Below are positions 27,239 through 54,183 of a stretch of 64,000 nucleotides of DNA, one piece after another. The first letter of the stretch is position 1, and each line of letters starts with the position of its first letter. A program made the translations under genes and the position numbers. Below the pieces are notes generated by a model that saw nothing but the letters and a program-made list of their open reading frames with translations, was not told the origin of the DNA and ran no database searches. Source of the stretch: Bacteroidia bacterium (GTDB lineage: Bacteria; Bacteroidota; Bacteroidia; M30B66); NCBI GenBank assembly GCA_965279035.1, contig OZ257142.1, positions 128,001-192,000 on the forward strand, given 5' to 3'.

Positions 27239-27246
27239 GTTTGCTT

Positions 27247-42300: not shown

Positions 42301-45300
42301 ACGCATACGACAACCAGGCCCAGTAAAAGCAAGAGGATCTATTGTTACACCTAGCGTACCTGATGAACTAGCAGCAGTTGTTCCTGCAGTACCAAAAAAC
42401 TCACCTGCATCTAAGAAGTCACCATCGCGGTTAAAATCGAACCAGATACCAACACCTTGAGCACCACCTGAACCTGTTGTAAAGTTAGCCGTGTAAGCAT
42501 TTCCTTGTTGCAAAGTAGTAGTAGCTGCATTTAACGCATAATTATTAGGTAAAGCACCTGGACAATTTGGCGTAGTACTAATTGTATTCAAGCTGAATGC
42601 TGTTAAATAATCTAAACTAGAACAAGCATTAGTAAATACTGGTAAGCAATAATCGATTAACACATTACCTGCATCAGAAATAGTTCCAGCTGTAAGCGAA
42701 TTTGTTGCACCACCAGCTAACGTAAATGTTAAGTTGGTTTTGTCAAGAGTTAAGTCGAGCGTATTTCCAATAATTGCAGTACCTGAAACATTGAAACGTA
42801 CCCAGAAATAATTTGAACCGGAAGCTATGTTTGTAGTTAATCCAGTAAAAGAAATCTGACCTGCAACAACACTTACCGCACCACCTATTTGAGCAACAGG
42901 AGCACCAAAAGTACCAGTCCACAAAGTAGCTGAAGTAATTTCCGATGGAGCTGCAGTACCTGTAAAGTTGAAAATACAATCTGTAAGGGTTATCGTTCCA
43001 GTAGATCCAACAGATTGGATATTCATACGAGTTTGGTTCACGTTAGTAGCACCAACATTTGTTGTAGCAGAAATAGCAGCAACTCCGGTTTGGTTTATAC
43101 TAACAGCAGCAACATCTAAAGGACCCGTTTGACCAAAAGCAATACGATCAGGGAAGGTGGAAGCAGCTAAAACTGGAGGAGGGTTTGCTAAGAATGCACC
43201 AAGTGGAACTGAACCAGCATTAAAAGTTGATCCTGAGCCTAAAATAGAGAAATCAGTTGCAGGCGATTGGATACCCACAAGTGTATTTCCAGAAACCATG
43301 GCTGCATCGTGCCCTTGAACACTATAGGAAACAAAGTTAGCAGATCCACTAGCGATACTAGTAACCCATTCTCTGTTCGGATTAAGAGAAACAATTCCAA
43401 TAAATGTATTTGGAAGACCTACTGAGTTGTTTGTTTCTGCTTGAATTGAAACTGGACCACCTGCATTTGTTGTAGCATTAAAAATTGCTAACCAATTAGA
43501 GGCTGTTTTACCAACTGGCAACCAAGCAGTAAAGTTGGTTGAGCTTGCTGGTATAACACGAATCATTGGTCCTGAAACATAACCAGCAGTTGTAGCGCCA
43601 GTAAAGGTATTTCCAGATGTTGTTGACTTATGAGTTAAAATATTGGTCAACGTTGTATTTACTTTACCTGCATTTAATGTAATTGAACCAGTTACAGATA
43701 AAGGAACGTTTAAAGTAACACCTGTAGCATTTGAATTTTGAACAATTAAATTGGCCAAATTACCTGTTGGAGATGCCGTGAGGTTTTGAATAGTACCTGA
43801 TCCACCAATAGTTTGTGCTCCTGTTGCATTAGAAAATACTAAACTAGATACATCCAAGAAACCTGCAGTTATGAATCCCAAGGTTCCAGATGTAGTCAAA
43901 GTTCCATTAACTAAAATACTTCCCGCAACATAGGGAGAAGCAATGCGGCTATCACCTCCAGTGTTGATTGTGAAATCACCTAAAATGGGTTGTTGGTAAG
44001 TGCTTGTTACAAAACGATTTGTTCCTGTTGGACCATTAACAATAACATTTCCAAACACCATACCTGTTGTAGAAGACCATGTGTTAACATTCCAAGCAGT
44101 AGCACTTGCGGCAGTACTTGATGTACCATCACCGAAACGGATTGTATGACCTGATGTTACATTCACATTTCCATTAAGACTACCACTTAAAGTAATTGTA
44201 TTAACTGCATTTGCAGGTGGATCAATAAATGTTAAAGTTCCTCCTGTAAGATTTACAGAAGTTAATGAAGACACATTCAGATTAAACAATACTGAACTCG
44301 TAGAATTTGCTGTAACGTTATTTGCATTACCATCTACATTAAAGTTACCACCTGATTGATTTAAAATCATTCCAGAAGTGGTAGCTAAATTTCCTGCAAG
44401 ATTAATAGTTCCACTTGATAAGTTTAACGTAGAACCATTTCCAAGATTTAATGTCCGGTTACAAAATGAATTGTCTTGAGGTCCAATGTTAATAGTACCT
44501 CCGCTTACATTCAATACACCTCCTGCTCCTAGTGAGATTCCTGTTCCTGAAGCTCCAGTAACTGTTAATGTATTACCAGAAACTACTAAAGTACCATTCA
44601 CAGCTACAGTAAGAGCAGCTGCGGCTGCAGCGTTTACAGTAACAGTAGTTCCTGAAGTAATTAATGGATTATCAGAAGATGTTGGAACCGAACCTGTTGA
44701 CCAAGTAGAACCAACATTCCAAGCAGCGCTAGCCACCGAATATAATCCGATATCGGCAGTATTGATACCCAAATACTGAGAACCAGAAAATGGAGTACTA
44801 GCTGCACCCGTAAATGTTCTACATCCAAAAGGAATTGCAGAAGTACCAGTTGCCGCCAAATGAGTTCCTGCTGCAGCGCCTACTTGCATAATGCGAGGAG
44901 CTGTTGAAGGAGCCGCAGCTGTTACAATTAAACCATCGCCACAGAGTGCCATGTGGATATTTCCTGTTGCTGTGTATCCGCCACCAGAGGCAAATAACCA
45001 TAAAGAGTTAGTTCGTTGGCTTAATACATAAGCCCCATCTGTATAACCATCAGCAGTTAATCCAGCCGTATTGGTATGAGTACATTCTACCCAACCAGCA
45101 ACGTTTGTAGATCCTGTTGTGTTTCTGTTTAAACGAACCATCCTAGAGGATGTACCGCTTACCATAGGGAAGAAGTTGGCTGTTGCAGAAGCTGCCGTAG
45201 TAATTGTAGTTGTTGTTACCCAACGACGAAATGTAGTTCCAGAAGCAAATCCACCAGAAGTCCAAGAAAGAGTTCCTGCAGAAGCAGTAGAAATACCTTG

Positions 45301-46494
45301 AATGAAGGTATTTGTAGAATTAATTAAACCTTGTGTAAACGTTAAAGTTCCAGAAACAGTACCTGTACTAGTACCACTCAAAACCGAATTGGCATTTAAA
45401 AAAGTAACACCACCCGTACTATTATTATTAACTGTTAATCCTGCAAAGTTCGCAGTTGGTGAAGCAGCTAAGTTACGGAATGAACCAGAACCAGTAATAG
45501 ATTGAGCTACAGTAGCTGGAGCCAAAGTTCCAGTTCCAGAACTGTTTGCAAAGGCAAATGTACCTGTAGTTGTTAATGTTCCATTGACAACCGTATTACC
45601 AGCAACTGAAAGTACACCAGTATTTCGGTAATCACCAGCTGTGATAGTTAGATCTTTTTGTACACCAACATATTGAGTAGTATATTGTTGTGTAACCAAA
45701 GTACGGTTACCAGAACCAGCAATATTGATAATTAAATTACCATATAATACGCGAGTTGAACCTACATATGTTTCTTGAACAAAACCACCTGTATTGGCAG
45801 TTGCATCGGTAGAAACACCATCACCCAATTGGAAGGTGTGATTCACACCAAGAGCCATACTTACAGAACCTAAATATGCAAATGCTCTTCCTAATGAATT
45901 ACTATTCACTACGTGGGGGTCAACAATGATGATTGATCCACCAGTAAGGTTTAGGTTAGTTGCAACTGAAGCAGTAAAACCAACAATGTTAGTTCCGGAA
46001 GCTACTGAAGTAGCAACGTTTCCATTGTCATTACCATCTACCTTTAATGTTCCAGCAGATTGGTCAAAACGACCACCTGAAGCAAGAGTAAAGGCACCAT
46101 TTACGATTACCGTTCCACCTGTAAGGTTGAAACGACCACCTGAGTTAATAGTAAAAGCAGAGTTGAACTGTGCTGCAATAGCAACAGTAAGGGTATTCGC
46201 TCCAACATTTAGTGTTCCAGCATTGATTACCAATGAACGAACAGAAGCGCTTCCCGATAAAGTCATTACAGAACTATTCTGAATAACGAAATCGTCAGCA
46301 TTGGAGATTGAACCTGGGTTGGTACCAGATAAACCATTTGTTGCAGTTACCCAACTTGCGACATTGTTAAAGTCTGTTGCAGAGGGGACCGAGTAATACG
46401 TGGTGGCTTGGAGCCAGCCGACCATCAAGAGAAAGATCCCCGTCAGGAGAAAACTTTTTCTTTGCCGGCGAAACAAATGTGTAGTTGTTTGCAT
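36346..46494 (-). CDS. Giant (3382 aa) T9SS-secreted surface protein with beta-strand repeats, two GEVED domains, Ig-like and PKD domains, type A CTD
   Basis: Signal peptide; Thr/Ser/Gly/Ala-rich; YGTVVDY and YGETEDY GEVED motifs; WNFGDG PKD; IYPNP...GVYEV CTD. Confidence 0.88.
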   Translation of the reverse strand: MQTTTHLFRRQRKSFLLTGIFLLMVGWLQATTYYSVPSATDFNNVASWVTATNGLSGTNPGSISNADDFVIQNSSVMTLSGSASVRSLVINAGTLNVGANTLTVAIAAQFNSAFTINSGGRFNLTGGTVIVNGAFTLASGGRFDQSAGTLKVDGNDNGNVATSVASGTNIVGFTASVATNLNLTGGSIIIVDPHVVNSNSLGRAFAYLGSVSMALGVNHTFQLGDGVSTDATANTGGFVQETYVGSTRVLYGNLIINIAGSGNRTLVTQQYTTQYVGVQKDLTITAGDYRNTGVLSVAGNTVVNGTLTTTGTFAFANSSGTGTLAPATVAQSITGSGSFRNLAASPTANFAGLTVNNNSTGGVTFLNANSVLSGTSTGTVSGTLTFTQGLINSTNTFIQGISTASAGTLSWTSGGFASGTTFRRWVTTTTITTAASATANFFPMVSGTSSRMVRLNRNTTGSTNVAGWVECTHTNTAGLTADGYTDGAYVLSQRTNSLWLFASGGGYTATGNIHMALCGDGLIVTAAAPSTAPRIMQVGAAAGTHLAATGTSAIPFGCRTFTGAASTPFSGSQYLGINTADIGLYSVASAAWNVGSTWSTGSVPTSSDNPLITSGTTVTVNAAAAAALTVAVNGTLVVSGNTLTVTGASGTGISLGAGGVLNVSGGTINIGPQDNSFCNRTLNLGNGSTLNLSSGTINLAGNLATTSGMILNQSGGNFNVDGNANNVTANSTSSVLFNLNVSSLTSVNLTGGTLTFIDPPANAVNTITLSGSLNGNVNVTSGHTIRFGDGTSSTAASATAWNVNTWSSTTGMVFGNVIVNGPTGTNRFVTSTYQQPILGDFTINTGGDSRIASPYVAGSILVNGTLTTSGTLGFITAGFLDVSSLVFSNATGAQTIGGSGTIQNLTASPTGNLANLIVQNSNATGVTLNVPLSVTGSITLNAGKVNTTLTNILTHKSTTSGNTFTGATTAGYVSGPMIRVIPASSTNFTAWLPVGKTASNWLAIFNATTNAGGPVSIQAETNNSVGLPNTFIGIVSLNPNREWVTSIASGSANFVSYSVQGHDAAMVSGNTLVGIQSPATDFSILGSGSTFNAGSVPLGAFLANPPPVLAASTFPDRIAFGQTGPLDVAAVSINQTGVAAISATTNVGATNVNQTRMNIQSVGSTGTITLTDCIFNFTGTAAPSEITSATLWTGTFGAPVAQIGGAVSVVAGQISFTGLTTNIASGSNYFWVRFNVSGTAIIGNTLDLTLDKTNLTFTLAGGATNSLTAGTISDAGNVLIDYCLPVFTNACSSLDYLTAFSLNTISTTPNCPGALPNNYALNAATTTLQQGNAYTANFTTGSGGAQGVGIWFDFNRDGDFLDAGEFFGTAGTTAASSSGTLGVTIDPLAFTGPGCRMRVMNRYNTTFVQTDVCLNPINYGTVVDYSVTIASPTPRSLNAITSVQQTGGMGASSTNNNLLRVDLSTTGSLGTITLTQAKFTYTGVSSADIAALGVSLWTGTSAAPTAQIGTSQTIAAGVVNFTGLSVSVGATSYLWLRVNTSAGAVIGNLVDAKIVAGDMSFTAAGGATATGSQPSADVDPAGNRYIDYCTPTYSSGCSSGDEITNVSMNGASINLSNSSGCSASPYYTYFSAVNKPDLFQGSTYNLSATFGSDGNQYLGVWIDFNNDGVFATTEFFGSTTSPGGGGTSTISIVVPIAGSTGNLRMRVRGGNDSQLSSNQACGASSSGYGETEDYIVTILPPPNCSTLLPFPATAATASPTSVCAGSSVNFGITVPMPVGLGITYQWRRNGVAFGVPQTSASVSLPVTLSGNYDVEVKCNGTTQVTSSTIAITAYNPQVLGVTNGTRCGIGSVNLNATSSAGSDLRYYDASTGGTLLATRTSGVAYATATLPGPSSTNYYVEAFTILGSGTSGAVSPAIGSFGTSFNGVYQVFTTSAPVKILSIDLFPTAAGTAQIELQDNLGNTVLSYSQVITAGDANSTGSFVGTPLTVPLNFDVPVGTDWQLVYVTGPVCLRNSAGAAGYYGTPSNNVTFTDNWVGSTSYWYNLYNWQIEKSCSSVRSLVTATVTAAPSISTTPTTSVSICEGDATTLQVSSTNLTYVYTWTPGPVVGSSVSVSPITTTSYTVNGVTSLGCTNSKTITVRVNPKPATPTSVTSIPSGSPITFCPNTNGTFTPVQINATATPLVTTLFFDDFAFGAGLGWQTAFTQVVPAEVLGALSRWTFPSAPPAYTYPGYPQTFNSTGSFAVAIGDAQGASSSGATATLTSPNASISISSAATSVVLTYDVSYNAYPADVFQVLYSTDNLTWTPIAASVLSDATDVPTTLGDFQTMTVTIPPAAYAGGVSNFRIRFSYYSEWGYWVAVDNVQVNETISTPQFSFSPAGGLFNDVAASSAYVANTPVSTVYAAPFNNSVYSVKVTNPGTGCQSNALTLPVNVCSVVTDQICNAASVTVLDAPPASLASVVNRTNLGAPITGSLAGLCTLLKSDVWYKSVIPASGDIHVYTFDANNAVTTFDLDSTVVAIYSSSDGTCTGTLTQLGCDAFNGVDGHTYVSASGLTPGSNVFIRVGSRQANIAPPVGFFKLLVMSGLYWSGNAGDYVFLNPSNWYGGDLTTTGILPSISKSIIIPQSATNNYPYVIGTQDVHGINFYYNTLTANAARITIDPAAKLRINSSLQRGGFVSAQGNPFILANPHVAGTGVLEFVNTNVNPLYNIHNINTPSTSYQIIIEGALGVKTNAQLNSNGKLSFINNSVLLSGGVKTTNPSYNYGGTVNGSIIYRRSGSVYGMYDYWSSPISNGNTTCLATSYGSNLYTYNNTAPGAGANVQLGWGTALSPSTAMQIGRGYIQTYAGNGNVVFNGLPNQVSFDYTPTITGANNFNLIGNPFPSSLKINELRARGTNSGTLGSIYLWNQSGNIPFSTGDYVVINSSNLAAGGTPPSGYSVAALELGACQAFMTDVQNTNDITFSCEDRVPTYPVNSTQFFDVTSNISLVRLDLKNSVGTAVNTVVAFSETSSDQFVGGEDSPRMPGTTGFDIYSKLDNQDLVIQMFSPLQATRIVDLGTSMTTNGEYTISMTEYVDFDPSTRVFLEDRATGTFQGLNSNPNYTFTTDPSFQGVRFRLHFMAPVNMASSSTCVGETNGKLIVSNSNMAYPMTAVLKNNNGETVSNSGQFVGEHIFQNLSSGSYTVDMSYVDGSVFSLSSNIGVSGVLSPASFIASSNTVQLADAIIEFAATAPGATEFIWNFGDGTIETTSATPVHAYMQPGIYTVTLTALSGGCSSTATSVVSVTDNTTGIANVGNSKGFSIYPNPANEAAKLLLNVDLKDAQATISITDAAGRLVNKHNLTNLRSGAIVELDINGLANGVYEVSIDSKNFRSVGRLTIAK

Positions 46495-47749: not shown

Positions 47750-49561
47750 ATGTACCGTTCATTTCGAAATCATTTTTACTCATTCCTCCTGATATTGCTG
47801 GCTTGCACCGCATGTTCTCAGAAATTAAACGCACAATTTGTACTCTATACCGATACCATTTTCCAAGCCTGCGATAGCATTCCATTCGTAATGGGATTGA
47901 ACGAAGAACCTGGATACCAGTATTCTTGGAGTCCACAATTACATCTTCAATCACCCGATAGTTCAAAAACCAGCGCTCTGCTCGAAAACAATACATCAAA
48001 CAATACGGTTTATCTCGTATACACTCAAACCATCTCCGATTCACAAGGTACAGTTGTTCATATTCGTACCTACGAGATTTATGTAAGCAAAATCACAGAG
48101 ATTCAAATTCAATTGGGTAATTACCCTTTATGTAAAGGAGATACGTTTATACTATCTCGACCACCCGGTTTAACAGGTAATTTAGAAATTCGGCCCACTG
48201 CTACTTCCTTTGGTGGAGTAAATGATGATCTTATTTATTTTTGGCCATCGGATACTACTCAGTACGAAATTATCTCGATTGATTCCTTGTACTGTGGACG
48301 CGTGACCTTCTTTATGGAGATCGATGTGAAAGATTTTACTCCTGCTACACTTAGTGCTAGTCAAACTTTTTTCTGCGAAGGAGGAGCCGACGACACAACG
48401 CAAATTGTTGCCATTCCACCTGGAGGTTCTTTTGGAGGACTTGGAGTGAATCAAGCCGGGATATTCAATGCTTCCATTGCTGGTTCGGGTGAACATTCAA
48501 TTATTTATTTCAGTTTTGAAAACGGCTGTGTTTCTTCCGATACACTGATTATCGAAGTGGCAACAGAGAATTCGGTAACAATAGATGGATTAACGAATCT
48601 TTGTGCGACCGATACCATCCTTGAATTAAGTTATGGACATCCTTCGGGTGGAACCTATTTAATAGATGGGGAGCCCAAAACGGGAAGTTTTAATCCGTCC
48701 GTACTAGGATCGGGCTCACATACCTTAACCTATTCGTATATATGGGAAGGCAATTGTACGTTTACCAAGGAGCAGGTTTTTTTCATCATTCCCATTCCAC
48801 CGAAACCTATACTTGAAGCACCCGATGGTCTGCTTGCCTGTGAAGGAGATTCACTCACATTAAGAACAACACTGTTCCCCACCTATTTCTGGAGTACAGG
48901 ACAAGTTTCTCCTGAAATTGAGGTCAAAACTAGTGGACACTACTCCGTTTTTTTTCGAAGTAATATAGGCTGCTATTCCTATTCCGACACGCTCAATGTG
49001 GTGATTTCGCCTGCCTTCACAATGGACTTAACTTCTCCCCTATTTGATAATGGCTTTGCGATTAGTCAATACGGAGCAACAGATGGTAGTATTGAAATTC
49101 AAGTACAAGGTGGATTGAGTCCCTTTCAGATTGATGTTAGTCCGAATGTTGGAACGGTTGATCAGTGGACTATTAGTGATTTAAATGCAGGATTTTACAC
49201 GATAACACTAAGCGATCAAGTTGGTTGTACCTCATTTGACACCTTGAGTTTGTTTCAACCCGATTTTGTACCGGAACCCATTGATTCCAGCTTACGAATT
49301 CCAAATGCCTTTACTCCAAATGGTGATGGGCATAACGACTTTTTCGTGATTCAAGGCTTGATTCCGAAATATGCGAAGAATACGTTCCGCGTATGGAATA
49401 TTAGTCGACAGTTGGTTTATAGCACAAGTGATTATACCAATACTTGGGATGGCAAAGACAACCAAGGAGTTAAACTTCCGGCAGGTACTTATTTCGCTGT
49501 ATTTACAAGTGAGAGCTTAACTGGAGTTGCTAAAACTTATATTGATATTCGATATGAGTAG
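47750..49561 (+). CDS. Secreted protein with T9SS type B (gliding motility-associated) C-terminal domain
   Basis: IPNAFTPNGDGHNDFF...WDGK...LPAGTYF; SprB-like DGSIEI..GG..PF repeat. Confidence 0.88.
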   Translation: MYRSFRNHFYSFLLILLACTACSQKLNAQFVLYTDTIFQACDSIPFVMGLNEEPGYQYSWSPQLHLQSPDSSKTSALLENNTSNNTVYLVYTQTISDSQGTVVHIRTYEIYVSKITEIQIQLGNYPLCKGDTFILSRPPGLTGNLEIRPTATSFGGVNDDLIYFWPSDTTQYEIISIDSLYCGRVTFFMEIDVKDFTPATLSASQTFFCEGGADDTTQIVAIPPGGSFGGLGVNQAGIFNASIAGSGEHSIIYFSFENGCVSSDTLIIEVATENSVTIDGLTNLCATDTILELSYGHPSGGTYLIDGEPKTGSFNPSVLGSGSHTLTYSYIWEGNCTFTKEQVFFIIPIPPKPILEAPDGLLACEGDSLTLRTTLFPTYFWSTGQVSPEIEVKTSGHYSVFFRSNIGCYSYSDTLNVVISPAFTMDLTSPLFDNGFAISQYGATDGSIEIQVQGGLSPFQIDVSPNVGTVDQWTISDLNAGFYTITLSDQVGCTSFDTLSLFQPDFVPEPIDSSLRIPNAFTPNGDGHNDFFVIQGLIPKYAKNTFRVWNISRQLVYSTSDYTNTWDGKDNQGVKLPAGTYFAVFTSESLTGVAKTYIDIRYE

Positions 49562-50157: not shown

Positions 50158-50418
50158 ATGGCTCGATTAAACATCAAGTGTAAAGAAGCCACAGCCTTGG
50201 TTTTGAAAAAGGAGAGTAGTTCTCTTCCTCTTCAAGATCGATTCCGCTTATGGATGCATTTGATCATTTGTTCCTGGTGCCGTTTGTTTGTGAAACAAAA
50301 TCGAATGCTTCACACAGCCATGAGCCAAGAAGGGCCGCATGTGAAGCTAGATCCTGAATTCAAGAAAAAGATAGAGGAAAGCCTGGGGCGGGGGGGCTCG
50401 GACTTACCCTCGGACTGA
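50158..50418 (+). CDS. zf-HC2 zinc-finger anti-sigma factor
   Basis: CKEAT...HLIICSWC (HxxxCxxC), directly after the ECF sigma; C-terminus is repeat-derived. Confidence 0.85.
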   Translation: MARLNIKCKEATALVLKKESSSLPLQDRFRLWMHLIICSWCRLFVKQNRMLHTAMSQEGPHVKLDPEFKKKIEESLGRGGSDLPSD

Positions 50419-50494
50419 AGTCCGGGGTTGCTGGGGGGGGGAGAGCTGAATTTTAGATGCGGTGATGGGCAGCCTCGGACTTCAGTCCGGGGGT
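50406..50494. repeat. Inverted doublet of the REP-like palindrome (REPIN-like), overlapping two gene ends
   Basis: CCTCGGACTGAAGTCCGGGG (50408-50427) and inverted CCTCGGACTTCAGTCCGGGG (50473-50492); 69/84 ungapped identity with 53349-53432. Confidence 0.9.
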
Positions 50495-52393
50495 TTTTGA
50501 CGAAATTGATAGAGCTGTATTATAAATAGCATCTGCATCGTAGCCGCATTCAGCCCAGAGTTCGGGTTGTGTGCCATGTTCCACAATGCTATCGGGAATT
50601 CCAAGTCGTTTTACGCGGGCAGAATATCCATGATCAGCCATAAATTCTAAAACGGCAGATCCGAAACCACCTTGAACGCAGCCATCCTCAACAGTAATGA
50701 TGTATTTGTAGTGTTTGAAGATAGTATGAAGCAATTCTTCGTCGATGGGTTTTACGAAACGCATATCGTATAAGCCAACGTCAAGGCCATTTTCAACCAA
50801 ACGATCAACCGCTACAGAAGCCATATTTCCCATGTGGCCAATGCTTAAAATAGCAAGGTCTTTTCCTGTACGCAACGTTCTTCCTTTCCCAATTTCGAGA
50901 AGTTGAAGTGGTTTTTTCCAGTCTATCATCACTCCGTTTCCGCGTGGATAACGAATACTGAATGGTGCTGGCGTTTTGTAAGCGGTGAACATGAGATTCC
51001 GAAGCTCTTCTTCATTCATAGGAGCAGAAACAATCATGTTGGGTATGCAGCGCATGTAGGCAATGTCATATGCACCATGATGCGTAGGTCCATCGGCACC
51101 CGCCAATCCACCGCGATCGAGGCAAAATACAACATGCAAATTTTGAATGGCTACATCGTGAATCACTTGATCATACGCACGTTGCATGAATGAACTGTAA
51201 ATATTACAGAAGGGAATCATACCTTGTGTAGCCAAACCTGCAGAAAAAGTAACGGCATGTTGCTCACAAATCCCCACATCGAAAGCACGATCGGGAATTT
51301 CCTTCATCATAATATTAAGCGAACAACCCGAAGGCATTGCAGGTGTAATTCCAACAACTCGCGCATCTTCTTTTGCTATCTCAACTAAAGTATGACCGAA
51401 AACATCTTGGTACTTAGGCGGTTCTGGTCCTTTTTTGGGTGCTTTAATTATTTCACCCGTGTCTTTATTGAATAATCCCGGAGCATGCCATAATGTTTGG
51501 TCTTCCTCAGCAAGCTTGTATCCTTTGCCTTTCACCGTAAGCACGTGCAGAAGTTTAGGTCCGGGAATGTCTTTGAGGTCATTCATCACCTGAACCAAAC
51601 GATTCACGTCATGTCCATCAACCGGTCCGAAATAGCGGAAATTCAATGATTCGAAAAGGTTGCTTTGCTGAAGAACAGCACTCTTGATTGCATTTTCTAC
51701 CTTTTGAACGATGGCTTGAGCATTCGGTCCAAACTTGGAGATTTTCCCAAGCAGATTCCACACTTCATCTTTCACACGGTTGTAAGTGTGTGAAGTGGTA
51801 ATATCCGTAAGATATTCTTTCAATGCACCAACATTGGGATCGATCGACATACAGTTGTCGTTCAAAATCACCAACATATTATTATTAGAAGCACCCGCAT
51901 TGTTCAAGGCTTCGAATGCCATTCCACCTGTAAGCGCCCCATCTCCAATAACAGCAATGTGTTGACGTTTGGTATCCCCTTTCAAATGTGAAGCGATAGC
52001 CATTCCGAGTGTCGCCGAAATAGATGTTGAACTGTGCCCAACTCCAAAAGTATCGTATTCGCTTTCTTTCCGTTTAGGGAAACCGCTAATTCCTCCGTAG
52101 ATCCGATTTGTATGAAATATTTCTCTACGACCAGTCAGCATTTTATGCCCATAGGCCTGATGTCCAACATCCCAAACGAGTTGATCGTCGGGAGTATTGA
52201 ATGCATAATGCAAAGCAACTGAAAGTTCAACTGTTCCTAGGCTAGCGCCAAAGTGCCCTCCTTTTACAGATACAATATCGATGATGTATTGACGTAACTC
52301 ATTGCAGATTTGCACGAGATCGTCTTCTTTGAATCGTCTTAGATCGGCAGGAGAGTCGATCTGAGCAAGCAATTCACCTGGAATAATGTTCAT
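50453..52393 (-). CDS. dxs: 1-deoxy-D-xylulose-5-phosphate synthase
   Basis: GGHFGASLG, WDVGHQAYGHK, GDGALTGG, DVGICEQHAV, DGPTHHG; start at ATG 52393 (MNIIPGELL) after TACCTTTG box. Confidence 0.97.
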   Translation of the reverse strand: MNIIPGELLAQIDSPADLRRFKEDDLVQICNELRQYIIDIVSVKGGHFGASLGTVELSVALHYAFNTPDDQLVWDVGHQAYGHKMLTGRREIFHTNRIYGGISGFPKRKESEYDTFGVGHSSTSISATLGMAIASHLKGDTKRQHIAVIGDGALTGGMAFEALNNAGASNNNMLVILNDNCMSIDPNVGALKEYLTDITTSHTYNRVKDEVWNLLGKISKFGPNAQAIVQKVENAIKSAVLQQSNLFESLNFRYFGPVDGHDVNRLVQVMNDLKDIPGPKLLHVLTVKGKGYKLAEEDQTLWHAPGLFNKDTGEIIKAPKKGPEPPKYQDVFGHTLVEIAKEDARVVGITPAMPSGCSLNIMMKEIPDRAFDVGICEQHAVTFSAGLATQGMIPFCNIYSSFMQRAYDQVIHDVAIQNLHVVFCLDRGGLAGADGPTHHGAYDIAYMRCIPNMIVSAPMNEEELRNLMFTAYKTPAPFSIRYPRGNGVMIDWKKPLQLLEIGKGRTLRTGKDLAILSIGHMGNMASVAVDRLVENGLDVGLYDMRFVKPIDEELLHTIFKHYKYIITVEDGCVQGGFGSAVLEFMADHGYSARVKRLGIPDSIVEHGTQPELWAECGYDADAIYNTALSISSKTPGLKSEAAHHRI

Positions 52394-52420
52394 AGGCCTG
52401 GTTGACGGCGAGATAGGTTT

Positions 52421-52428
52421 CAAAGGTA
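52421..52428 (-). promoter_or_regulatory. Bacteroidota -7 promoter box (TACCTTTG) for dxs
   Basis: Exact TAnnTTTG 28 nt upstream of ATG 52393. Confidence 0.65.
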
Positions 52429-52500
52429 GTGTATCTGTTGGAAAATATGTTCTGATAAACAGAGAATGGGTGGAAATGTTGTGGGGGAAGGGGATTTTGG

Positions 52501-52722
52501 AGCCTCGGACTGAAGTCGGGGGGGATGGGGGGAAGGGAGCTGGAATATAGATAGGGCTGGACAACCCCGGACTGAAGTCCGAGGGTGCTGGGGGAAGGGA
52601 GCTAGATTTTAGAGAGGGAGATCTGCTGTCCTTGACTCTTATCGGATACCCCTCGGACTGAAGTCCGAGGTTGCTGGAGGGGAGGGTGCGGAATTTTAGT
52701 TAGGGTGAGCTGAAGTCCTGGG
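52501..52722 (+). repeat. Left tandem array of REP-like units
   Basis: Palindromes at 52503, 52565 and 52651 plus a degenerate half at ~52709; each followed by G-rich tract and GAGCTGGATTTTAGA-like box. Confidence 0.9.
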
Positions 52723-52827
52723 ATGCGGGAGATGCAAATCTATTGCGTGTAATGCAAAAGGATGATAATAAAACAAGGCTAGATTTATACGATATATTCA
52801 TCAATAGTAAAATCAATATTAAATAGT

Positions 52828-53229
52828 ATGGGAAGAGTTACTGTATTTATTCATATCGTATTCAGTACAAAGTATGGGCATCGAATACTTACTGAGGAAT
52901 TGATTGAAACATTAAAACTCTATCTTAAAGATCAATCTATTTTAAAACCCTTTGAAGTAATCGAATTTAATGGTTTTGAAAATCATATCCATTGTCTAAT
53001 AAGCTGCCATTCGGGCATTTCTCTTCCAGATTGTGTAAAATGGTTAAAAGGGTCATCATCAAGATGGCTGAATCAACAATCCTATTTTAAGCATCATTTT
53101 AAATGGAAAGTTGGGTATTATGCTACGAGAATTCCTTCAACTGAATATGATAGGGTAGTTCGCTATATACAAAATCAACAGGTCACTCATTTAAAGCGTT
53201 TGGGAAAAGAGAAGCTGGCCCCGGACTGA
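52828..53229 (+). CDS. tnpA: IS200/IS605-family Y1 HUH transposase (TnpA / RAYT-like)
   Basis: HIVFSTKY, HUH motif NHIH, KGSSSRWLN, catalytic Tyr in VRYIQNQ. Confidence 0.9.
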   Translation: MGRVTVFIHIVFSTKYGHRILTEELIETLKLYLKDQSILKPFEVIEFNGFENHIHCLISCHSGISLPDCVKWLKGSSSRWLNQQSYFKHHFKWKVGYYATRIPSTEYDRVVRYIQNQQVTHLKRLGKEKLAPD

Positions 53230-53433
53230 AGTCCGGGGGGTTGGGGGGAAGGGTGCTGAAATATAGATAAGGTGAGACGAAGCCTCGGAATGAAGTCCGA
53301 GGGTGCTGGGGGGAAGGGAGATGGATTTTAGATATTGTGCGTCGTATTCTCGGACTGAAGTCCGAGGTTGCCGAGGGAAAGGGAGCTGGATTTTAGATAT
53401 AGTGCGCAGCAGCCTCGGACTTCAGTCCGGGGT
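53219..53433 (+). repeat. Right tandem array of REP-like units ending in an inverted copy
   Basis: Palindromes at 53219, 53283, 53348 (GAA loop) and 53413 (inverted, TTC loop); spacing 64/65/65 nt. Confidence 0.92.
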
Positions 53434-54183
53434 TTATGAGAACCAGTTTGCCAGATCTTCAATACGCAATTGTTTTTTTGCATCACCCGAAACATCACGT
53501 ATAACCTGCCCTTCGGATAGTTGTATGATTCGGCTTCCGACCTGAATGCATTGTCGCAGCTCATGTGTTACCATGATTGCAGTGATTTTTTTTTCGAGTA
53601 AGATGCGCTGGGTGAGTTCCAAAATACGAGCTGCTGATCGAGGATCCAATGCTGCAGTAGGCTCATCTAACAATAATACATCTAAGGTGTCGAAGGTTGC
53701 CATGAGTAAGGAAAGAGCTTGCCTTTGTCCACCTGAAAAACTTCCCATGGGTTGATCAAGCCTGTTTTCTAAGCCCATAGCGAGGATGCTCACATGTGCA
53801 GAAACTACTTTCCGGAAAGCAGAATCAACTCCAATTCGCAATCCCTTGTTTTGAGTGCGTAATGATGCTAGTCGGAAATTATCGATCAACGAAAGATCAG
53901 GGGCTGTTCCAGCTGTTGGGTCTTGGAATATTCGAGCAATAGAAGCACTTCGTTTATAGCTAGGCAGTGATTGTATTTGTTTTCCGTTGATAGAAATGCT
54001 TCCTGAATCAGGTAAAAAGGAGCCTGCGATGAGATTGAGCAGCGTTGATTTTCCAGAACCATTCGACCCAACCATCACATTGAAGGAACCGACCTCTAAG
54101 GTTAGGTTGATGCTTTTTACAGCAATCACTTGACGTTCGGTGCCGGGGAAAAAAGTCTTGTTCAGATTCTTAATCTCAATCAT
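53434..54183 (-). CDS. ABC transporter ATP-binding protein
   Basis: GSNGSGKST, IFQDP, FSGGQRQAL, LLLDEPTAALDP. Confidence 0.93.
   Translation of the reverse strand: MIEIKNLNKTFFPGTERQVIAVKSINLTLEVGSFNVMVGSNGSGKSTLLNLIAGSFLPDSGSISINGKQIQSLPSYKRSASIARIFQDPTAGTAPDLSLIDNFRLASLRTQNKGLRIGVDSAFRKVVSAHVSILAMGLENRLDQPMGSFSGGQRQALSLLMATFDTLDVLLLDEPTAALDPRSAARILELTQRILLEKKITAIMVTHELRQCIQVGSRIIQLSEGQVIRDVSGDAKKQLRIEDLANWFS

What the first reader, a model, noticed from the sequence alone, without database searches (positions are those of the whole stretch)
52501..53433. Lone HUH-Y1 transposase flanked by tandem ~64-bp palindrome arrays: candidate new RAYT/REP-type system in Bacteroidota
Seen: a 133-aa TnpA (HIH and YIQNQ intact, no TnpB) with 3 palindromes plus 1 partial upstream and 4 downstream, consensus CCYCGGACT-GA-AGTCCGRGG. 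Each unit is hairpin + G-rich tract + GAGCTGRATTTTAGAT box + a short variable segment, with periods of 62, 64 and 65 nt (one 86). All are co-oriented except the last, which is inverted, and two more copies lie ~2 kb to the left. Established: ordinary IS200/IS605 elements have one subterminal hairpin per end, whereas RAYTs are flanked by multiple REPs, typically GTAG- or CGTC-footed, which these are not. Inference: a domesticated IS200-like nuclease with its own repeat family, in which tandem units arise by rolling-circle-like amplification. The array may also be transcribed into repeated structured RNAs.
Basis: partly seen in the sequence, partly recalled or inferred. Interest (0 to 1): 0.85.

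Follow-up and report, generated by a model that had tools for sequence, protein, structure and literature searches.

The report
IS200-like transposase flanked by REP arrays
A lone IS200-type DNA-cutting enzyme gene in a Bacteroidia genome sits between clusters of a 20-base hairpin repeat, laid out like the REP/RAYT systems of E. coli and Pseudomonas but built on a different branch of the enzyme family, so it is a new variant of a known kind.

Summary
A 133-aa HUH-Y1 gene (52828-53229) lies between three and a half upstream and four downstream copies of CCYCGGACTGAAGTCCGRGG. Two more copies lie 2 kb to the left. No copies are expected by chance.

New anatomy:
- On the opposite strand, 7 of 9 copies carry a conserved 5' foot, GCA[A/C/G], one base away from the canonical GTAG.
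- The last two downstream copies and the two left-hand copies are 87-nt inverted doublets that fold like REPINs.
- The tnpA, dxs and a small ORF all end inside repeats.

The protein is IS200-class, not classical RAYT: NCBIfam IS200 scores 67.7 bits against a cutoff of 55, and REP_Tyr scores 29.4 against 80. Its nearest relatives carry the Y-x3-Q-x2-HH signature of Quentin's "subclass 1.2", which was reported as having no REPs.

The same repeat flanks related genes in a syntenic Bacteroidetes MAG, a Limisphaerales MAG and a Chlorobiales MAG. A Persicobacter plasmid has 1 such gene and 16 repeat sites.

Best reading: a REPtron-like unit of an IS200-like transposase with its own REP/REPIN family (confidence 0.6).

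Genome-wide counts of the repeat and of tnpA could not be obtained, so domestication remains unproven. Bertels 2017 already described a "RAYT-like IS200 Group 3". I rate this a new variant of a known kind, of moderate interest.

The parts
52828..53229 (+). tnpA: a 133-aa HUH-Y1 transposase of the IS200-like class 1, near 'subclass 1.2'. Key residues are H53, H55, W93, Y113 and Q117. The stop codon lies in the loop of the next REP.
   Evidence: Pfam PF01797 scores 82.9 bits. NCBIfam NF033573 scores 67.7 against a cutoff of 55; NF047646 scores 29.4 against 80. The AlphaFold2 model has pLDDT 91.4. The best structural matches are the ISDra2 and IS608 TnpA.
52503..52522 (-). REP copy u1, the most degenerate (foot ATCC, one stem mismatch). 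It starts a 62-nt unit.
52565..52584 (-). REP copy u2 (foot GCAC on the - strand). Its unit is 86 nt long and has an extra 22-nt segment.
52651..52670 (-). REP copy u3 (foot GCAA). It is the left arm of a decayed doublet.
52707..52729 (+). Partial REP. It is the decayed inverted right arm of the upstream doublet and aligns with the inverted REP of L085.
53219..53238 (-). REP copy u4 (foot AACC). It overlaps the last 11 nt of tnpA.
53283..53302 (-). REP copy u5 (foot GCAC, one mismatch)
53348..53432 (.). REPIN-like doublet: REP u6 (53348-53367, foot GCAA) + 45-nt linker + inverted REP (53413-53432, foot GCAG). It ends 1 nt before the stop codon of the ABC ATPase gene.
   Evidence: Folds as a 22-bp-stem hairpin, -24.0 kcal/mol, z -6.8. 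82% identical over 87 nt to 50409-50495.
50408..50492 (.). Second REPIN-like doublet, at a separate site between the convergent small ORF and dxs. It consists of REP 50408-50427, a linker and inverted REP 50473-50492. Both genes end inside it.
   Evidence: Folds at -25.1 kcal/mol, z -6.5. The dxs tail ...PGLKSEAAHHRI is REP-coded and absent from 118 of 120 listed orthologues.
50453..52393 (-). dxs (1-deoxy-D-xylulose-5-phosphate synthase, 646 aa), divergent from tnpA. Its last ~13 codons are REP-derived.
   Evidence: TIGR00204 scores 792.8 bits
53434..54183 (-). ABC transporter ATP-binding gene, convergent with tnpA. It bounds the downstream array.
   Evidence: Pfam ABC_tran

Best explanation
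The locus is a REPtron-like unit. It holds one IS200-class (class 1, subclass-1.2-related) HUH-Y1 transposase gene embedded in clusters of its own repeat family.

The repeat. It is a 24-nt REP read on the strand whose loop is TTCA: a 4-nt foot GCA[A/C/G], an 8-9-bp G+C-rich stem and a 2-4-nt loop. The likely mobile form is an 87-nt inverted doublet (a REPIN): REP, a G-rich tract with the AGCTGnATTTTAGAT box, then an inverted REP.

Inferred mechanism, by analogy with IS608/ISDra2 TnpA and with TnpA-REP. The enzyme binds the folded hairpin on transiently single-stranded DNA. It uses the foot tetranucleotide as a guide to pick a nearby cleavage site. It cuts through a 5'-phosphotyrosine link (Y113, with metal held by H53, H55 and Q117) and rejoins. 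This moves or copies doublets in trans, while the gene itself stays put.

The co-oriented tandem units beside the gene are local duplications of 'REP + linker'. They could arise by slippage, unequal exchange or enzyme-mediated joining; which one is not shown.

Side effects that the sequence shows directly:
- Repeats supply the stop codon of tnpA.
- Repeats supply the C-terminal tails of dxs and of a small ORF.
- Repeats fill the dxs-tnpA promoter region and the 3' end of an ABC operon.

Shown: the anatomy, the protein class, the association across genomes and one insertion polymorphism. Inferred: binding, cleavage, trans-mobilisation and domestication.
For: 1. Architecture. There are 9 repeat copies where none is expected, all within 3 kb around the only Y1 gene of the 64-kb window. 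Two 87-nt doublets are 82% identical and fold as long hairpins: z -6.5 to -7.1 on both strands, with 0 of 200 shuffles as good.

2. Foot. GCA[A/C/G] lies directly 5' of the stem in 7 of 9 window copies. Across the window and L085 together it is 11 of 13.

3. An intact enzyme.
- HUH, W, Y and Q are all present.
- Four homologues at 55-70% identity are free of breaks.
- The model has pLDDT 91.4 and pTM 0.84.
- The best structural matches are ISDra2 TnpA (E 8e-10) and IS608 TnpA (E 2e-8).

4. The gene and repeat travel together.
- L085 (a Bacteroidetes MAG) has dxs 5' end - doublet - tnpA - doublet. Its dxs is 78% identical in DNA and its leader region is alignable. It has the same REP and foot and the same ...PD* ending in the REP loop.
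- P0002 (70% identical) has the tail LGLKSGAAGGKGVGF, which is the REP plus G-tract translated.
- The Limisphaerales locus L072 and the Chlorobiales locus L058 have subclass-1.2-type genes flanked on both sides by the same 14-nt core. That Chlorobiales MAG has the core on 3 further contigs with no Y1 gene in the held flanks.

5. A case retrieved by protein, not by hairpin. The Persicobacter JZB09 plasmid3 has 1 subclass-1.2-type gene. Its 46-nt flanking arm occurs at 16 places on the 632-kb replicon and at 3 on a second replicon. These include 6 empty ~190-nt doublets near the one that carries the gene.

6. Mobility in the source lineage. The REP-coded dxs tail is present in the window and in its closest relative (91% identical). 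It is absent from the other 118 of 120 listed orthologues.

7. Not IS-like in distribution.
- The window protein's 90% cluster has 1 member on 1 contig.
- Subclass-1.2-type genes occur on 2 of 72,556 plasmid records at E<=1e-15.
- Of the 6 classical plasmid tnpA loci I inspected, 5 have TnpB beside them.

8. Literature.
- Guide-tetranucleotide and hairpin recognition by TnpA-REP (PMC8266576, passages read).
- 'RAYT-like IS200 Group 3': no duplicates, none on plasmids, abundant flanking 16-mers (PMC5581495, sections 23-24 read).
Against: - No repeat copy lies in the other ~60 kb of the window. The family may be small or local. If sites were spread at random, this only bounds them below roughly 200 in 4.2 Mb (my estimate).
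- Genome-wide counts of REP and tnpA were not obtained.
- By sequence the protein is an IS200/IS605 transposase above NCBI's cutoff, and it fails the RAYT model.
- It lacks the conserved C-terminal domain and one H of the subclass-1.2 signature. It could be a decaying copy.
- The syntenic L085 protein is only 36% identical. That fits replacement or repeated insertion as well as vertical descent.
- The same hairpin core flanks class-2 RAYT-type genes in Acidobacteriaceae and in Portibacter. A different enzyme elsewhere in the genome could be the real mobiliser.
- In Persicobacter the gene sits between the two arms of the repeated element. That is the picture of an IS with MITE derivatives.
- The stem shows no covariation beyond chance: 93.8% of cells are paired, but 369 of 500 shuffles do as well.
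Confidence: 0.6

Rival explanations
1. An ordinary autonomous IS200-family element whose subterminal hairpins have been locally duplicated, together with MITE-like deletion derivatives (the doublets). In this reading tnpA itself transposes, is multi-copy in the genome and is not domesticated.
For: - NCBIfam equivalog IS200/IS605 scores 67.7 against a cutoff of 55.
- The closest structures are the ISDra2 and IS608 transposases.
- The nearest full REPs on either side of the gene (52651 and 53219) are co-oriented, as the left and right end hairpins of IS200/IS605 are (the IS layout is from PMC6006769 passages).
- In Persicobacter the gene lies between the arms of the element that also exists as six empty copies.
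- The Bernardetia plasmid has 2 tnpA places and only 3 repeat places.
Against: - There are several hairpins per side, including complete inverted doublets, not one per end.
- The gene occupies the same place beside dxs in a second genome whose dxs DNA differs by 22%. That argues for long residence.
- The 90% cluster has a single member on a single contig.
- Relatives are almost absent from plasmids (2 of 72,556 records).
- There is no TnpB, and no second copy in 64 kb.
[quoted passage not shown] This is unverified.
Confidence: 0.2
2. The repeats belong to a different enzyme, a class-2 RAYT encoded elsewhere in the genome. The IS200-like gene is a bystander or relic that the repeats have invaded, truncating its C-terminus.
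For: - The identical 14-nt core flanks class-2 RAYT-type genes. Examples are L038 (NF047646 108.8 bits against a cutoff of 80), L060 and L025 in Acidobacteriaceae, and L028 in Portibacter marinus, a member of the Bacteroidota.
- The same core is a GTAG-footed REP in 7 Pseudomonas-type loci.
- The repeat overlaps and ends the ORF in both the window and L085.
- The clade lacks the C-terminal domain of its relatives.
Against: - The association with subclass-1.2-type genes recurs in four phyla: the window, L085, L072, L058 and the tail of P0002.
- No class-2 gene lies in the 64-kb window or in the held flanks of those loci.
- The catalytic residues and the fold are intact.
- The foot GCAN differs from the GTAG/CAG/TAG feet seen beside the class-2 genes.
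Confidence: 0.12
3. The arrays are mainly cis-acting or RNA elements (terminators, mRNA 3' stabilisers, structured transcripts) that expanded by replication slippage, with no role for the transposase.
For: - The repeats sit exactly at gene ends: the dxs 3' end, the ABC operon 3' end and the small ORF 3' end.
- REP 50473-50492 followed by GTTTTT scores as terminator-like.
- REPs elsewhere are reported to stabilise mRNA and to terminate transcription (PMC6006769 background passage).
Against: - Terminator-like sites are not enriched: 4 found against 3.2 +/- 1.9 in shuffles.
- There is no Rfam family; the best matches are 28 bits against a gathering score of 90.
- Slippage does not explain the second doublet 2 kb away across dxs, or the same repeat beside related genes in other phyla.
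Confidence: 0.05

Closest known systems
REPtrons and REPIN-RAYT systems: E. coli TnpA-REP with REP/BIME; Pseudomonas and Stenotrophomonas RAYTs (Bertels RAYT groups 2 and 3, Quentin subclasses 2.2 and 2.5)
   Same: - One Y1 HUH gene flanked by several copies of a 20-40-nt palindrome that carries a 5' tetranucleotide.
- Inverted doublets that fold as long hairpins.
- Clusters with tandem reiteration of REP plus flanking DNA (PMC3733652 passages).
- Hairpin apex GAC-TTCA-GTC, as in listed GTAG REPs (Quentin Table S1).
- The identical 14-nt core is GTAG-footed in Pseudomonas loci.
   Different: - The protein fails the RAYT model (29.4 bits against a cutoff of 80).
- It has Y-x3-Q, not Y-x3-NP.
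- 4er8 is only rank 30 structurally (E 1.3e-5) and is not found by sequence at E<=1.
- The foot is GCA[A/C/G], not GTAG.
- High genome-wide copy number is not shown.
TnpA-Y1 'subclass 1.2' of Quentin et al. [quoted passage not shown] 2017 (PMC5581495)
   Same: - The nearest relatives are of this group. 125 of the 150 best representatives and 48 of the 56 other hits carry Y-x3-Q-x2-HH; none carries Y-x3-NP.
- It is IS200-like by profile.
- It stands alone without TnpB.
- It occurs in Bacteroidetes.
- It is low in copy number and almost absent from plasmids.
- Bertels' group has abundant flanking 16-mers.
   Different: - The window clade (P0001-P0004) has Y-x3-Q-x3-H with T or N in place of the first H. 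It has WK/WG instead of WQ, and it lacks the conserved C-terminal domain.
- Quentin et al. list this subclass as having no REP and generally no terminal structures. Here a defined REP/REPIN family flanks it.
- The identity of Bertels' Group 3 with subclass 1.2 is my inference. Its sequences are not in the supplement I could search.
IS200/IS605 transposases TnpA of IS608 and ISDra2 (Quentin subclass 1.1)
   Same: - The fold, the catalytic HUH, Y and Q, and the size.
- They recognise subterminal hairpins with a 5' guide tetranucleotide on one strand (PMC6006769 passage).
   Different: - Classical elements have one hairpin per end.
- They usually carry TnpB (5 of the 6 classical plasmid loci inspected).
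- They are multi-copy and common on plasmids (PMC5581495, section 19).
- Here there are arrays and doublets, no TnpB, and a fixed place beside dxs in two genomes.
Bacteroidetes RAYT-type genes with atypical repeats (Quentin subclass 2.6 = Bertels RAYT group 5; also subclass 2.4)
   Same: Same phylum. The genes are flanked by non-GTAG secondary structures that recur in the genome.
   Different: Those proteins are class 2 (NH[LIV]H, WQ, YIH[QN]NP, about 179 aa). Ours is class 1 and 133 aa. I did not compare the repeats directly. My search of Quentin's held supplementary files found our core only inside cyanobacterial GTAG REPs.
Portibacter marinus locus L028/L029
   Same: A Bacteroidota Y1 gene flanked on both sides by tandem arrays (periods 51-78 nt) that contain the same CGGACTTCAGTCCG core.
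   Different: The protein is 248 aa and class-2-like (NHFH, YILDNP; NF047646 62.7 bits). Its arrays alternate two different hairpins.

Membership tests
IS200/IS605 TnpA (Y1 HUH transposase) | Profile match above the curated cutoff (Pfam PF01797, NCBIfam NF033573) | tested here: met
   82.9 bits against a cutoff of 23; 67.7 bits against a cutoff of 55
IS200/IS605 TnpA (Y1 HUH transposase) | HUH motif, catalytic Tyr and a Gln four residues later; ferredoxin-like fold with a C-terminal helix carrying the Tyr | tested here: met
   H53, H55, Y113 and Q117 are present. The model has pLDDT 91.4. Foldseek gives ISDra2 E 8e-10 and IS608 E 2e-8.
IS200/IS605 TnpA (Y1 HUH transposase) | IS organisation: one subterminal hairpin at each end; several near-identical copies per genome | tested here: inconclusive
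   There are 3.5 hairpins upstream and 4 downstream, including a doublet. There is one copy in 64 kb, and the 90% cluster has 1 member. Genome copy number could not be obtained.
IS200/IS605 TnpA (Y1 HUH transposase) | Acts as a homodimer with active sites formed in trans | not testable with these tools
   The only attempt gave no verdict (see Tried and rejected). Oligomeric state needs experiment.
RAYT / TnpA-REP (class 2) | Profile match above the cutoff (NCBIfam NF047646) and the Y-x3-NP motif | tested here: not met
   29.4 bits against a cutoff of 80. The motif is YIQNQ. 4er8 is not among the sequence hits at E<=1.
RAYT / TnpA-REP (class 2) | Gene flanked by two or more cognate REPs or REPINs (a REPtron) | tested here: met
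   also in L085, L072 and L058
RAYT / TnpA-REP (class 2) | REP carries a conserved 5' GT[AG]G guide tetranucleotide at the foot | tested here: not met
   The foot is GCA[A/C/G] in 7 of 9 copies. It is conserved, but it is not GTAG or GTGG.
RAYT / TnpA-REP (class 2) | Single gene copy with tens to hundreds of REPs dispersed in the genome | not testable with these tools
Within the window there are 2 sites, both within 2.5 kb of the gene. In the Persicobacter analogue the ratio is 16 sites to 1 gene.
RAYT / TnpA-REP (class 2) | Vertical inheritance at a conserved locus | tested here: inconclusive
   L085 has the same place beside dxs, but its TnpA is only 36% identical. Only one comparison genome was available.
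TnpA-Y1 subclass 1.2 (Quentin 2018) | Y-x3-Q-x2-HH signature | tested here: not met
   The window has YIQNQQVTH and its three close relatives have YIQNQ[RK]INH: only the second H is present. The L085 protein does have YIENQKEHH.
TnpA-Y1 subclass 1.2 (Quentin 2018) | Conserved subclass-specific C-terminal domain | tested here: not met
   Absent in P0001-P0004. The ORF ends in the repeat 16 residues after Y113.
TnpA-Y1 subclass 1.2 (Quentin 2018) | Closest sequence relatives are of this subclass; found in Bacteroidetes/Cyanobacteria; low copy; no TnpB | tested here: met
   125 of the 150 best representatives carry the signature. The source is Bacteroidia-like by dxs. The tree did not resolve deep placement.
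REPIN (REP doublet forming a hairpin) | Two REPs in inverted orientation with a short spacer that fold into one long hairpin; more than one copy | tested here: met
   50408-50492 and 53348-53432 are 82% identical. Stems are 22-26 bp with z -6.5 to -7.1. There are two more in L085, with z -9.7 and -5.3.

The most novel reading that the evidence does not exclude
IS200-like 'subclass 1.2' Y1 transposases as a whole may be an unrecognised second lineage of REP/REPIN-associated, host-resident (domesticated) transposases. They would be spread through Bacteroidota, Chlorobiota and Verrucomicrobiota. They would use the same hairpin apex (GGAC-TTCA-GTCC) and an xxAG-type foot, as class-2 RAYTs do. That would make them the living intermediate between IS200 elements and RAYTs, and would show that hairpin recognition predates the split. 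The 2018 survey scored this subclass as REP-less, probably because it searched automatically only for GT[AG]G feet.
Probability: 0.35. Interest if true: 0.6.

Novelty: new variant of a known kind. Interest (0 to 1): 0.45.

Why it matters
REP/RAYT systems are the textbook case of a domesticated bacterial transposase with its own population of small mobile repeats. All tested examples are class-2 enzymes from Proteobacteria with GTAG-footed repeats.

This locus gives a concrete, sequence-defined repeat (foot, hairpin, doublet) for an IS200-class enzyme from a group described only as 'IS200-related, not IS-like, function unknown, no REP'. That turns an open annotation problem into a bench test: a 133-aa protein against 24-87-nt ssDNA substrates.

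It also offers a possible intermediate for asking whether RAYTs were domesticated once or several times.

Practically, it shows that such genes, which NCBI rules name 'IS200/IS605 family transposase', need not mark insertion sequences. It also shows that their repeats can rewrite the 3' ends of essential genes such as dxs.

Tried and rejected
1. Genome-wide repeat count. No count was obtained.

2. The listing of cluster members for P0001-P0004, P0063, P0070 and P0212. The database was switched off.

3. Search with an array-encoded peptide (window 53194-53421, - strand) for other translated arrays. One candidate, none at E<=10. This is uninformative.

4. Homodimer prediction. No verdict; it is not evidence either way.

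5. Maximum-likelihood tree of 63 Y1 proteins. This was a subset: 45 randomly sampled from the 125-160-aa hits, plus named loci and outgroups.
- Only shallow clades are supported: the window clade at 98, and L085+P0070 at 99.
- The long-branched IS605 and class-2 outgroups fell inside a polytomy, so there is no placement relative to subclasses 1.1 and 1.2.

6. GC skew for replication direction. Values range from -0.05 to +0.07 with no clear sign. Strand bias of the repeats relative to the fork was left untested.

7. Rfam. Only miRNA-precursor look-alikes of the doublet, far below gathering scores.

8. Promoter and terminator scan. Counts are not above shuffles.

9. Stem covariation. Not above shuffles.

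10. Doublet against plasmids. Only 19-31-nt partial hairpin matches at E 0.06-9. I rejected these as chance or as generic hairpin similarity.

11. Leader fold upstream of tnpA. z is -0.45 in the window. Only L085 has a strong hairpin there.

12. Bertels 2017 supplement. It holds RAYT nucleotide sequences and no IS200 Group 3 list, so the equation with subclass 1.2 stays unverified.

The contigs of P0002-P0004 and P0212 could not be read.

14. I considered and dropped G-quadruplex formation by the G-tract. There are only three runs of three or more G per unit, by eye.
Full report
OBSERVATION.
- The palindrome CCYCGGACTGAAGTCCGRGG (up to 3 mismatches) occurs at 9 sites: 50408, 50473, 52503, 52565, 52651, 53219, 53283, 53348 and 53413. 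In 100 dinucleotide-preserving shuffles the count was 0.
- Seven sites are co-oriented. Sites 50473 and 53413 are inverted.
- Spacings are 62 and 86 nt upstream and 64, 65 and 65 nt downstream. Tandem Repeats Finder reports 53218-53433 as period 65, 3.4 copies.
- A profile of the seven full units finds only these, plus the two inverted hairpins. Nothing lies outside 50405-53438 at E<=10.
- ORF 52828-53229 (133 aa) is the only Y1_Tnp ORF in the window. Its neighbours are dxs (50453-52393, - strand) and an ABC ATPase gene (53434-54183, - strand). There is no TnpB.

ANATOMY. Four things were not in the finding.
1. The foot. When each copy is read on the strand whose loop is TTCA, the four bases directly 5' of the stem are GCAA, GCAG or GCAC in 7 of 9 copies. 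The two exceptions have one or more extra C's. The repeat therefore has a conserved foot one base away from the canonical GTAG.
2. The doublets. Copies 53348+53413 and 50408+50473 are two examples of one 87-nt element: REP, then a linker made of the G-rich tract, the AGCTGnATTTTAGAT box and ~14 variable nt, then an inverted REP. They are 82% identical. As single strands they fold into 22-26-bp hairpins. Energies are -20 to -25 kcal/mol, z is -6.5 to -7.1 on both strands, and 0 of 200 shuffles do as well. These are REPIN-like. A single REP folds at about -9 kcal/mol.
3. The partial copy. The 'partial' copy at 52707-52729 aligns with the inverted arm of a doublet in a related locus. The upstream cluster is therefore two tandem units plus one decayed doublet.
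4. Overlap with coding ends.
   - The tnpA stop TGA is the ...CTGAAG... of the hairpin loop.
   - dxs ends ...SSKTPGLKSEAAHHRI inside the left-hand doublet.
   - The small ORF 50158-50418 ends ...GGSDLPSD in it.
   - The last REP ends 1 nt before the ABC gene's stop.

The host DNA is 39-40% G+C, and the repeats are G+C-rich islands.

THE PROTEIN.
- NCBIfam places it in IS200/IS605 at 67.7 bits against a cutoff of 55. It fails the RAYT model at 29.4 bits against a cutoff of 80.
- By sequence it hits 8 distinct PDB sequences at E<=1. All are IS200/IS605-type transposases. The best is 2fyx at 4.4e-10, and 4er8 is not among them.
- An AlphaFold2 model built on 139 aligned sequences has pLDDT 91.4. 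Foldseek ranks ISDra2 (E 8e-10) and IS608 (E 2e-8) first. The E. coli RAYT 4er8 is rank 30 (E 1.3e-5).
- The catalytic H53, H55, Y113 and Q117 are present.
- In the 5.8-billion-protein set it has three close relatives at 70, 67 and 59% identity. The other 56 hits are at most 41% identical. Its own 90% cluster has one member, on one contig of 4,200,666 bp.
- In the exhaustive search of representatives, 3460 score E<=1e-3, 332 score <=1e-10 and none scores <=1e-30.
- Of the best 150 representatives, 125 carry Y-x3-Q-x2-HH. Of the 56 distant hits, 48 do. None carries the class-2 Y-x3-NP. That signature defines 'subclass 1.2' of Quentin et al. 2018 (PMC6006769; I read its section 18 and further passages).
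- The window clade departs from that subclass. It has YIQNQQVTH, with only the second H. It has WK/WG instead of WQ and no conserved C-terminal domain.
- A 63-row tree supports the window clade (98) but resolves nothing deeper.

RELATIVES ELSEWHERE. I spent the single genome-contig scan on the hairpin (CYCGGACTGAAGTCCGRG). The source genome was not among them, so there is no genome-wide count.

The scan was informative in another way. A Y1 profile run over 3180 six-frame ORFs of these loci gave 11 ORF hits in 8 distinct loci.

Three of those loci hold subclass-1.2-type genes:
- L085 (a Bacteroidetes MAG): doublet - tnpA - doublet, with the ORF ending ...HHSGPPD* in the hairpin loop.
- L072 (Limisphaerales): YIENQQQHH, with a hairpin on each side.
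- L058 (Chlorobiales): YIDAQLEHH, with a hairpin on each side. The same MAG has the core on three more contigs with no Y1 gene in the held flanks.

L085 is syntenic with the window:
- Its first 171 nt are the dxs 5' end, 78% identical.
- The region between the doublet and tnpA is alignable.
- All 4 of its REPs have GCAG or GCAA feet.
- Yet the two TnpAs are only 36% identical. This remains unexplained.

P0002 (70% identical) ends LGLKSGAAGGKGVGF, which is the REP plus G-tract translated.

The remaining Y1 loci are of other kinds:
- Class-2 RAYT-type: Acidobacteriaceae L038 (108.8 bits against a cutoff of 80), L060 and L025, and Portibacter marinus L028 with tandem hairpin arrays on both sides.
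- One cut-off IS200-type ORF, L118.

Oriented on the TTCA strand, 66 of 142 hairpin instances have AG ending 2-3 nt before the core, and 20 have GTAG within 10 nt. The Pseudomonas loci read GTAG-CC-core. Quentin's Table S1 lists GTAG REPs with the same GAC-TTCA-GTC apex in subclasses 2.5, 2.7 and 2.8 (term search of the held supplements). The window's palindrome is thus a member of a widespread REP hairpin type with a variant foot.

A CASE RETRIEVED BY PROTEIN, NOT BY HAIRPIN. A tblastn of the window protein against 72,556 plasmids gave 21 records. I inspected 8.
- Six are annotated as classical tnpA, and 5 of those 6 have TnpB beside them.
- Two are subclass-1.2-type: Persicobacter JZB09 plasmid3 and a Bernardetia plasmid.
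- With a typical subclass-1.2 protein as query, only these 2 of 72,556 records match at E<=1e-15.

In Persicobacter the gene lies between the arms of a palindrome-bearing element.
- The 46-nt arm occurs at 16 places on the 632-kb replicon and at 3 on a second replicon.
- In the 50 kb I read, there are six empty ~190-nt doublets and one that carries the gene.

In Bernardetia the gene has 2+2 flanking inverted repeats. There are only 3 repeat places for 2 gene places.

MOBILITY IN THE SOURCE LINEAGE. Of the 120 dxs proteins listed (8000 were scored), only two have REP-coded tails: the window's own and its closest relative (91% identical...PGLQSGVYH). The other 118 end normally. The left-hand doublet is therefore a recent gain. 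Named relatives are Bacteroidia and Flavobacteriales MAGs.

LITERATURE.
- Quentin 2018 lists subclass 1.2 as IS200-related, low-copy, lacking IS properties, found in Cyanobacteria and Bacteroidetes, and 'REP: no'. Its automatic REP search required a GT[AG]G foot.
- Bertels 2017 (PMC5581495; abstract and sections 19, 23 and 24 read) describes a 'RAYT-like IS200 Group 3'. It has no duplicates, no members on plasmids, and flanking 16-mers with 21 occurrences. It is probably the same group, but its members are not in the supplement I could search.
- Di Nocera 2013 (PMC3733652, passages) reports REP clusters made of tandemly reiterated singletons or dimers with flanking DNA. Tandem arrays are therefore not new.
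- Corneloup 2021 (PMC8266576, passages) shows that the last two foot positions and the loop bases guide cleavage in group-3 REPtrons.
- Full-text searches for the core sequence found only unrelated primer-type hits (5 papers). Searches for TnpAREP, TnpAY1, REPtron and 'subclass 1.2' from 2018 onward found no later treatment of this subclass (12 papers).

MECHANISM AND RIVALS.
- Best reading (0.6): a REPtron-like unit in which the IS200-class enzyme recognises its GCAN-footed hairpin on single-stranded DNA and moves doublets in trans. The tandem units are local duplications.
- Rival, an ordinary IS200 with MITE derivatives (0.2). This fits the profile call and the Persicobacter layout.
- Rival, repeats owned by a class-2 RAYT elsewhere (0.12). 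This fits the shared hairpin.
- Rival, purely cis-regulatory arrays (0.05).
- The remaining ~0.03 is left for explanations not listed here.
- Nothing supports rolling-circle amplification or structured RNA products.

NEGATIVE OR INCONCLUSIVE RESULTS.
- No repeat lies in the other ~60 kb of the window.
- There is no covariation in the stem: 93.8% of cells are paired, and 369 of 500 shuffles equal it.
- GC skew is uninformative.
- Promoter and terminator counts are not above shuffles.
- The doublet has no plasmid match beyond partial hairpins.
- The array-peptide search was empty.
- The dimer job gave no verdict.

VERDICT. The feature is real and well described. The domestication claim is still open. 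It is a new variant of a known kind, of moderate interest (0.45).

Noticed in passing
proteins P0061, P0062, P0065, P0067, P0068 and others: 23 of the 150 closest representatives are 266-315-aa proteins with two Y1_Tnp domains in tandem. Several have a recognisable Y motif only in the second domain. They may be covalently linked 'dimers'. The 2018 survey discarded over-long proteins as fusions or errors.
   Followed up: partly
L085:1-928 versus window 52230-53240: The locus is the same in both: dxs 5' end, doublet, leader, tnpA. The REP is the same, but the TnpA proteins are only 36% identical while the dxs DNA is 78% identical. This could be fast evolution or replacement between flanking doublets.
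   Followed up: partly
L085:365-418: A perfect 15-bp inverted repeat lies between the upstream doublet and the tnpA start (RNA fold z -5.1). The window keeps only a degenerate TGCAAA-rich remnant at 52733-52765. It may be a regulatory hairpin.
   Followed up: partly
window 50453-50500 and 50390-50418: The last ~13 codons of dxs and the last ~9 codons of the small ORF 50158-50418 are encoded by the repeat doublet. Among 120 listed dxs orthologues, only the closest relative (P0212) also has a REP-coded tail.
   Followed up: yes
L028/L029 (Portibacter marinus NZ_JAJNKB010000014.1), L028:1990-3080: A 248-aa class-2-like Y1 gene (NHFH, YILDNP) is flanked on both sides by tandem arrays alternating two hairpins, one with the same CGGACTTCAGTCCG core. 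By its motifs it resembles the group that the 2018 survey lists as REP-less (subclass 2.1). That assignment is my guess.
   Followed up: partly
L127 (Persicobacter sp. JZB09 plasmid3 CP012861.1, 279109-292168): Six empty ~190-nt palindrome-bearing doublets and one that carries a subclass-1.2-type tnpA lie within 13 kb. The arm has 16 places on the replicon. The record is unannotated.
   Followed up: partly
L001-L122: The 14-nt core CGGACTTCAGTCCG recurs on several contigs in 19 of the 87 genomes hit (Acidobacteriota, Planctomycetota, Chlorobiota, Myxococcota, Pseudomonadota and one archaeal MAG). Each has genome-specific flanks, which suggests many independent REP families share one hairpin.
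   Followed up: partly
window 36346-46494 (- strand) and 27241-32253 (+ strand): Two very long ORFs (3382 aa and 1670 aa). The first has internal direct repeats. The ORF 47750-49561 ends with a motif that I recall as the Bacteroidota gliding/T9SS-type C-terminal domain. None of this was examined.
   Followed up: no
plasmid hits H39 and H40 (Deinococcus wulumuqiensis): A 25-nt, 92% match of the REP lies under TnpB/transposase annotations (E=3). This is chance level, but it sits in IS200/IS605 elements.
   Followed up: no
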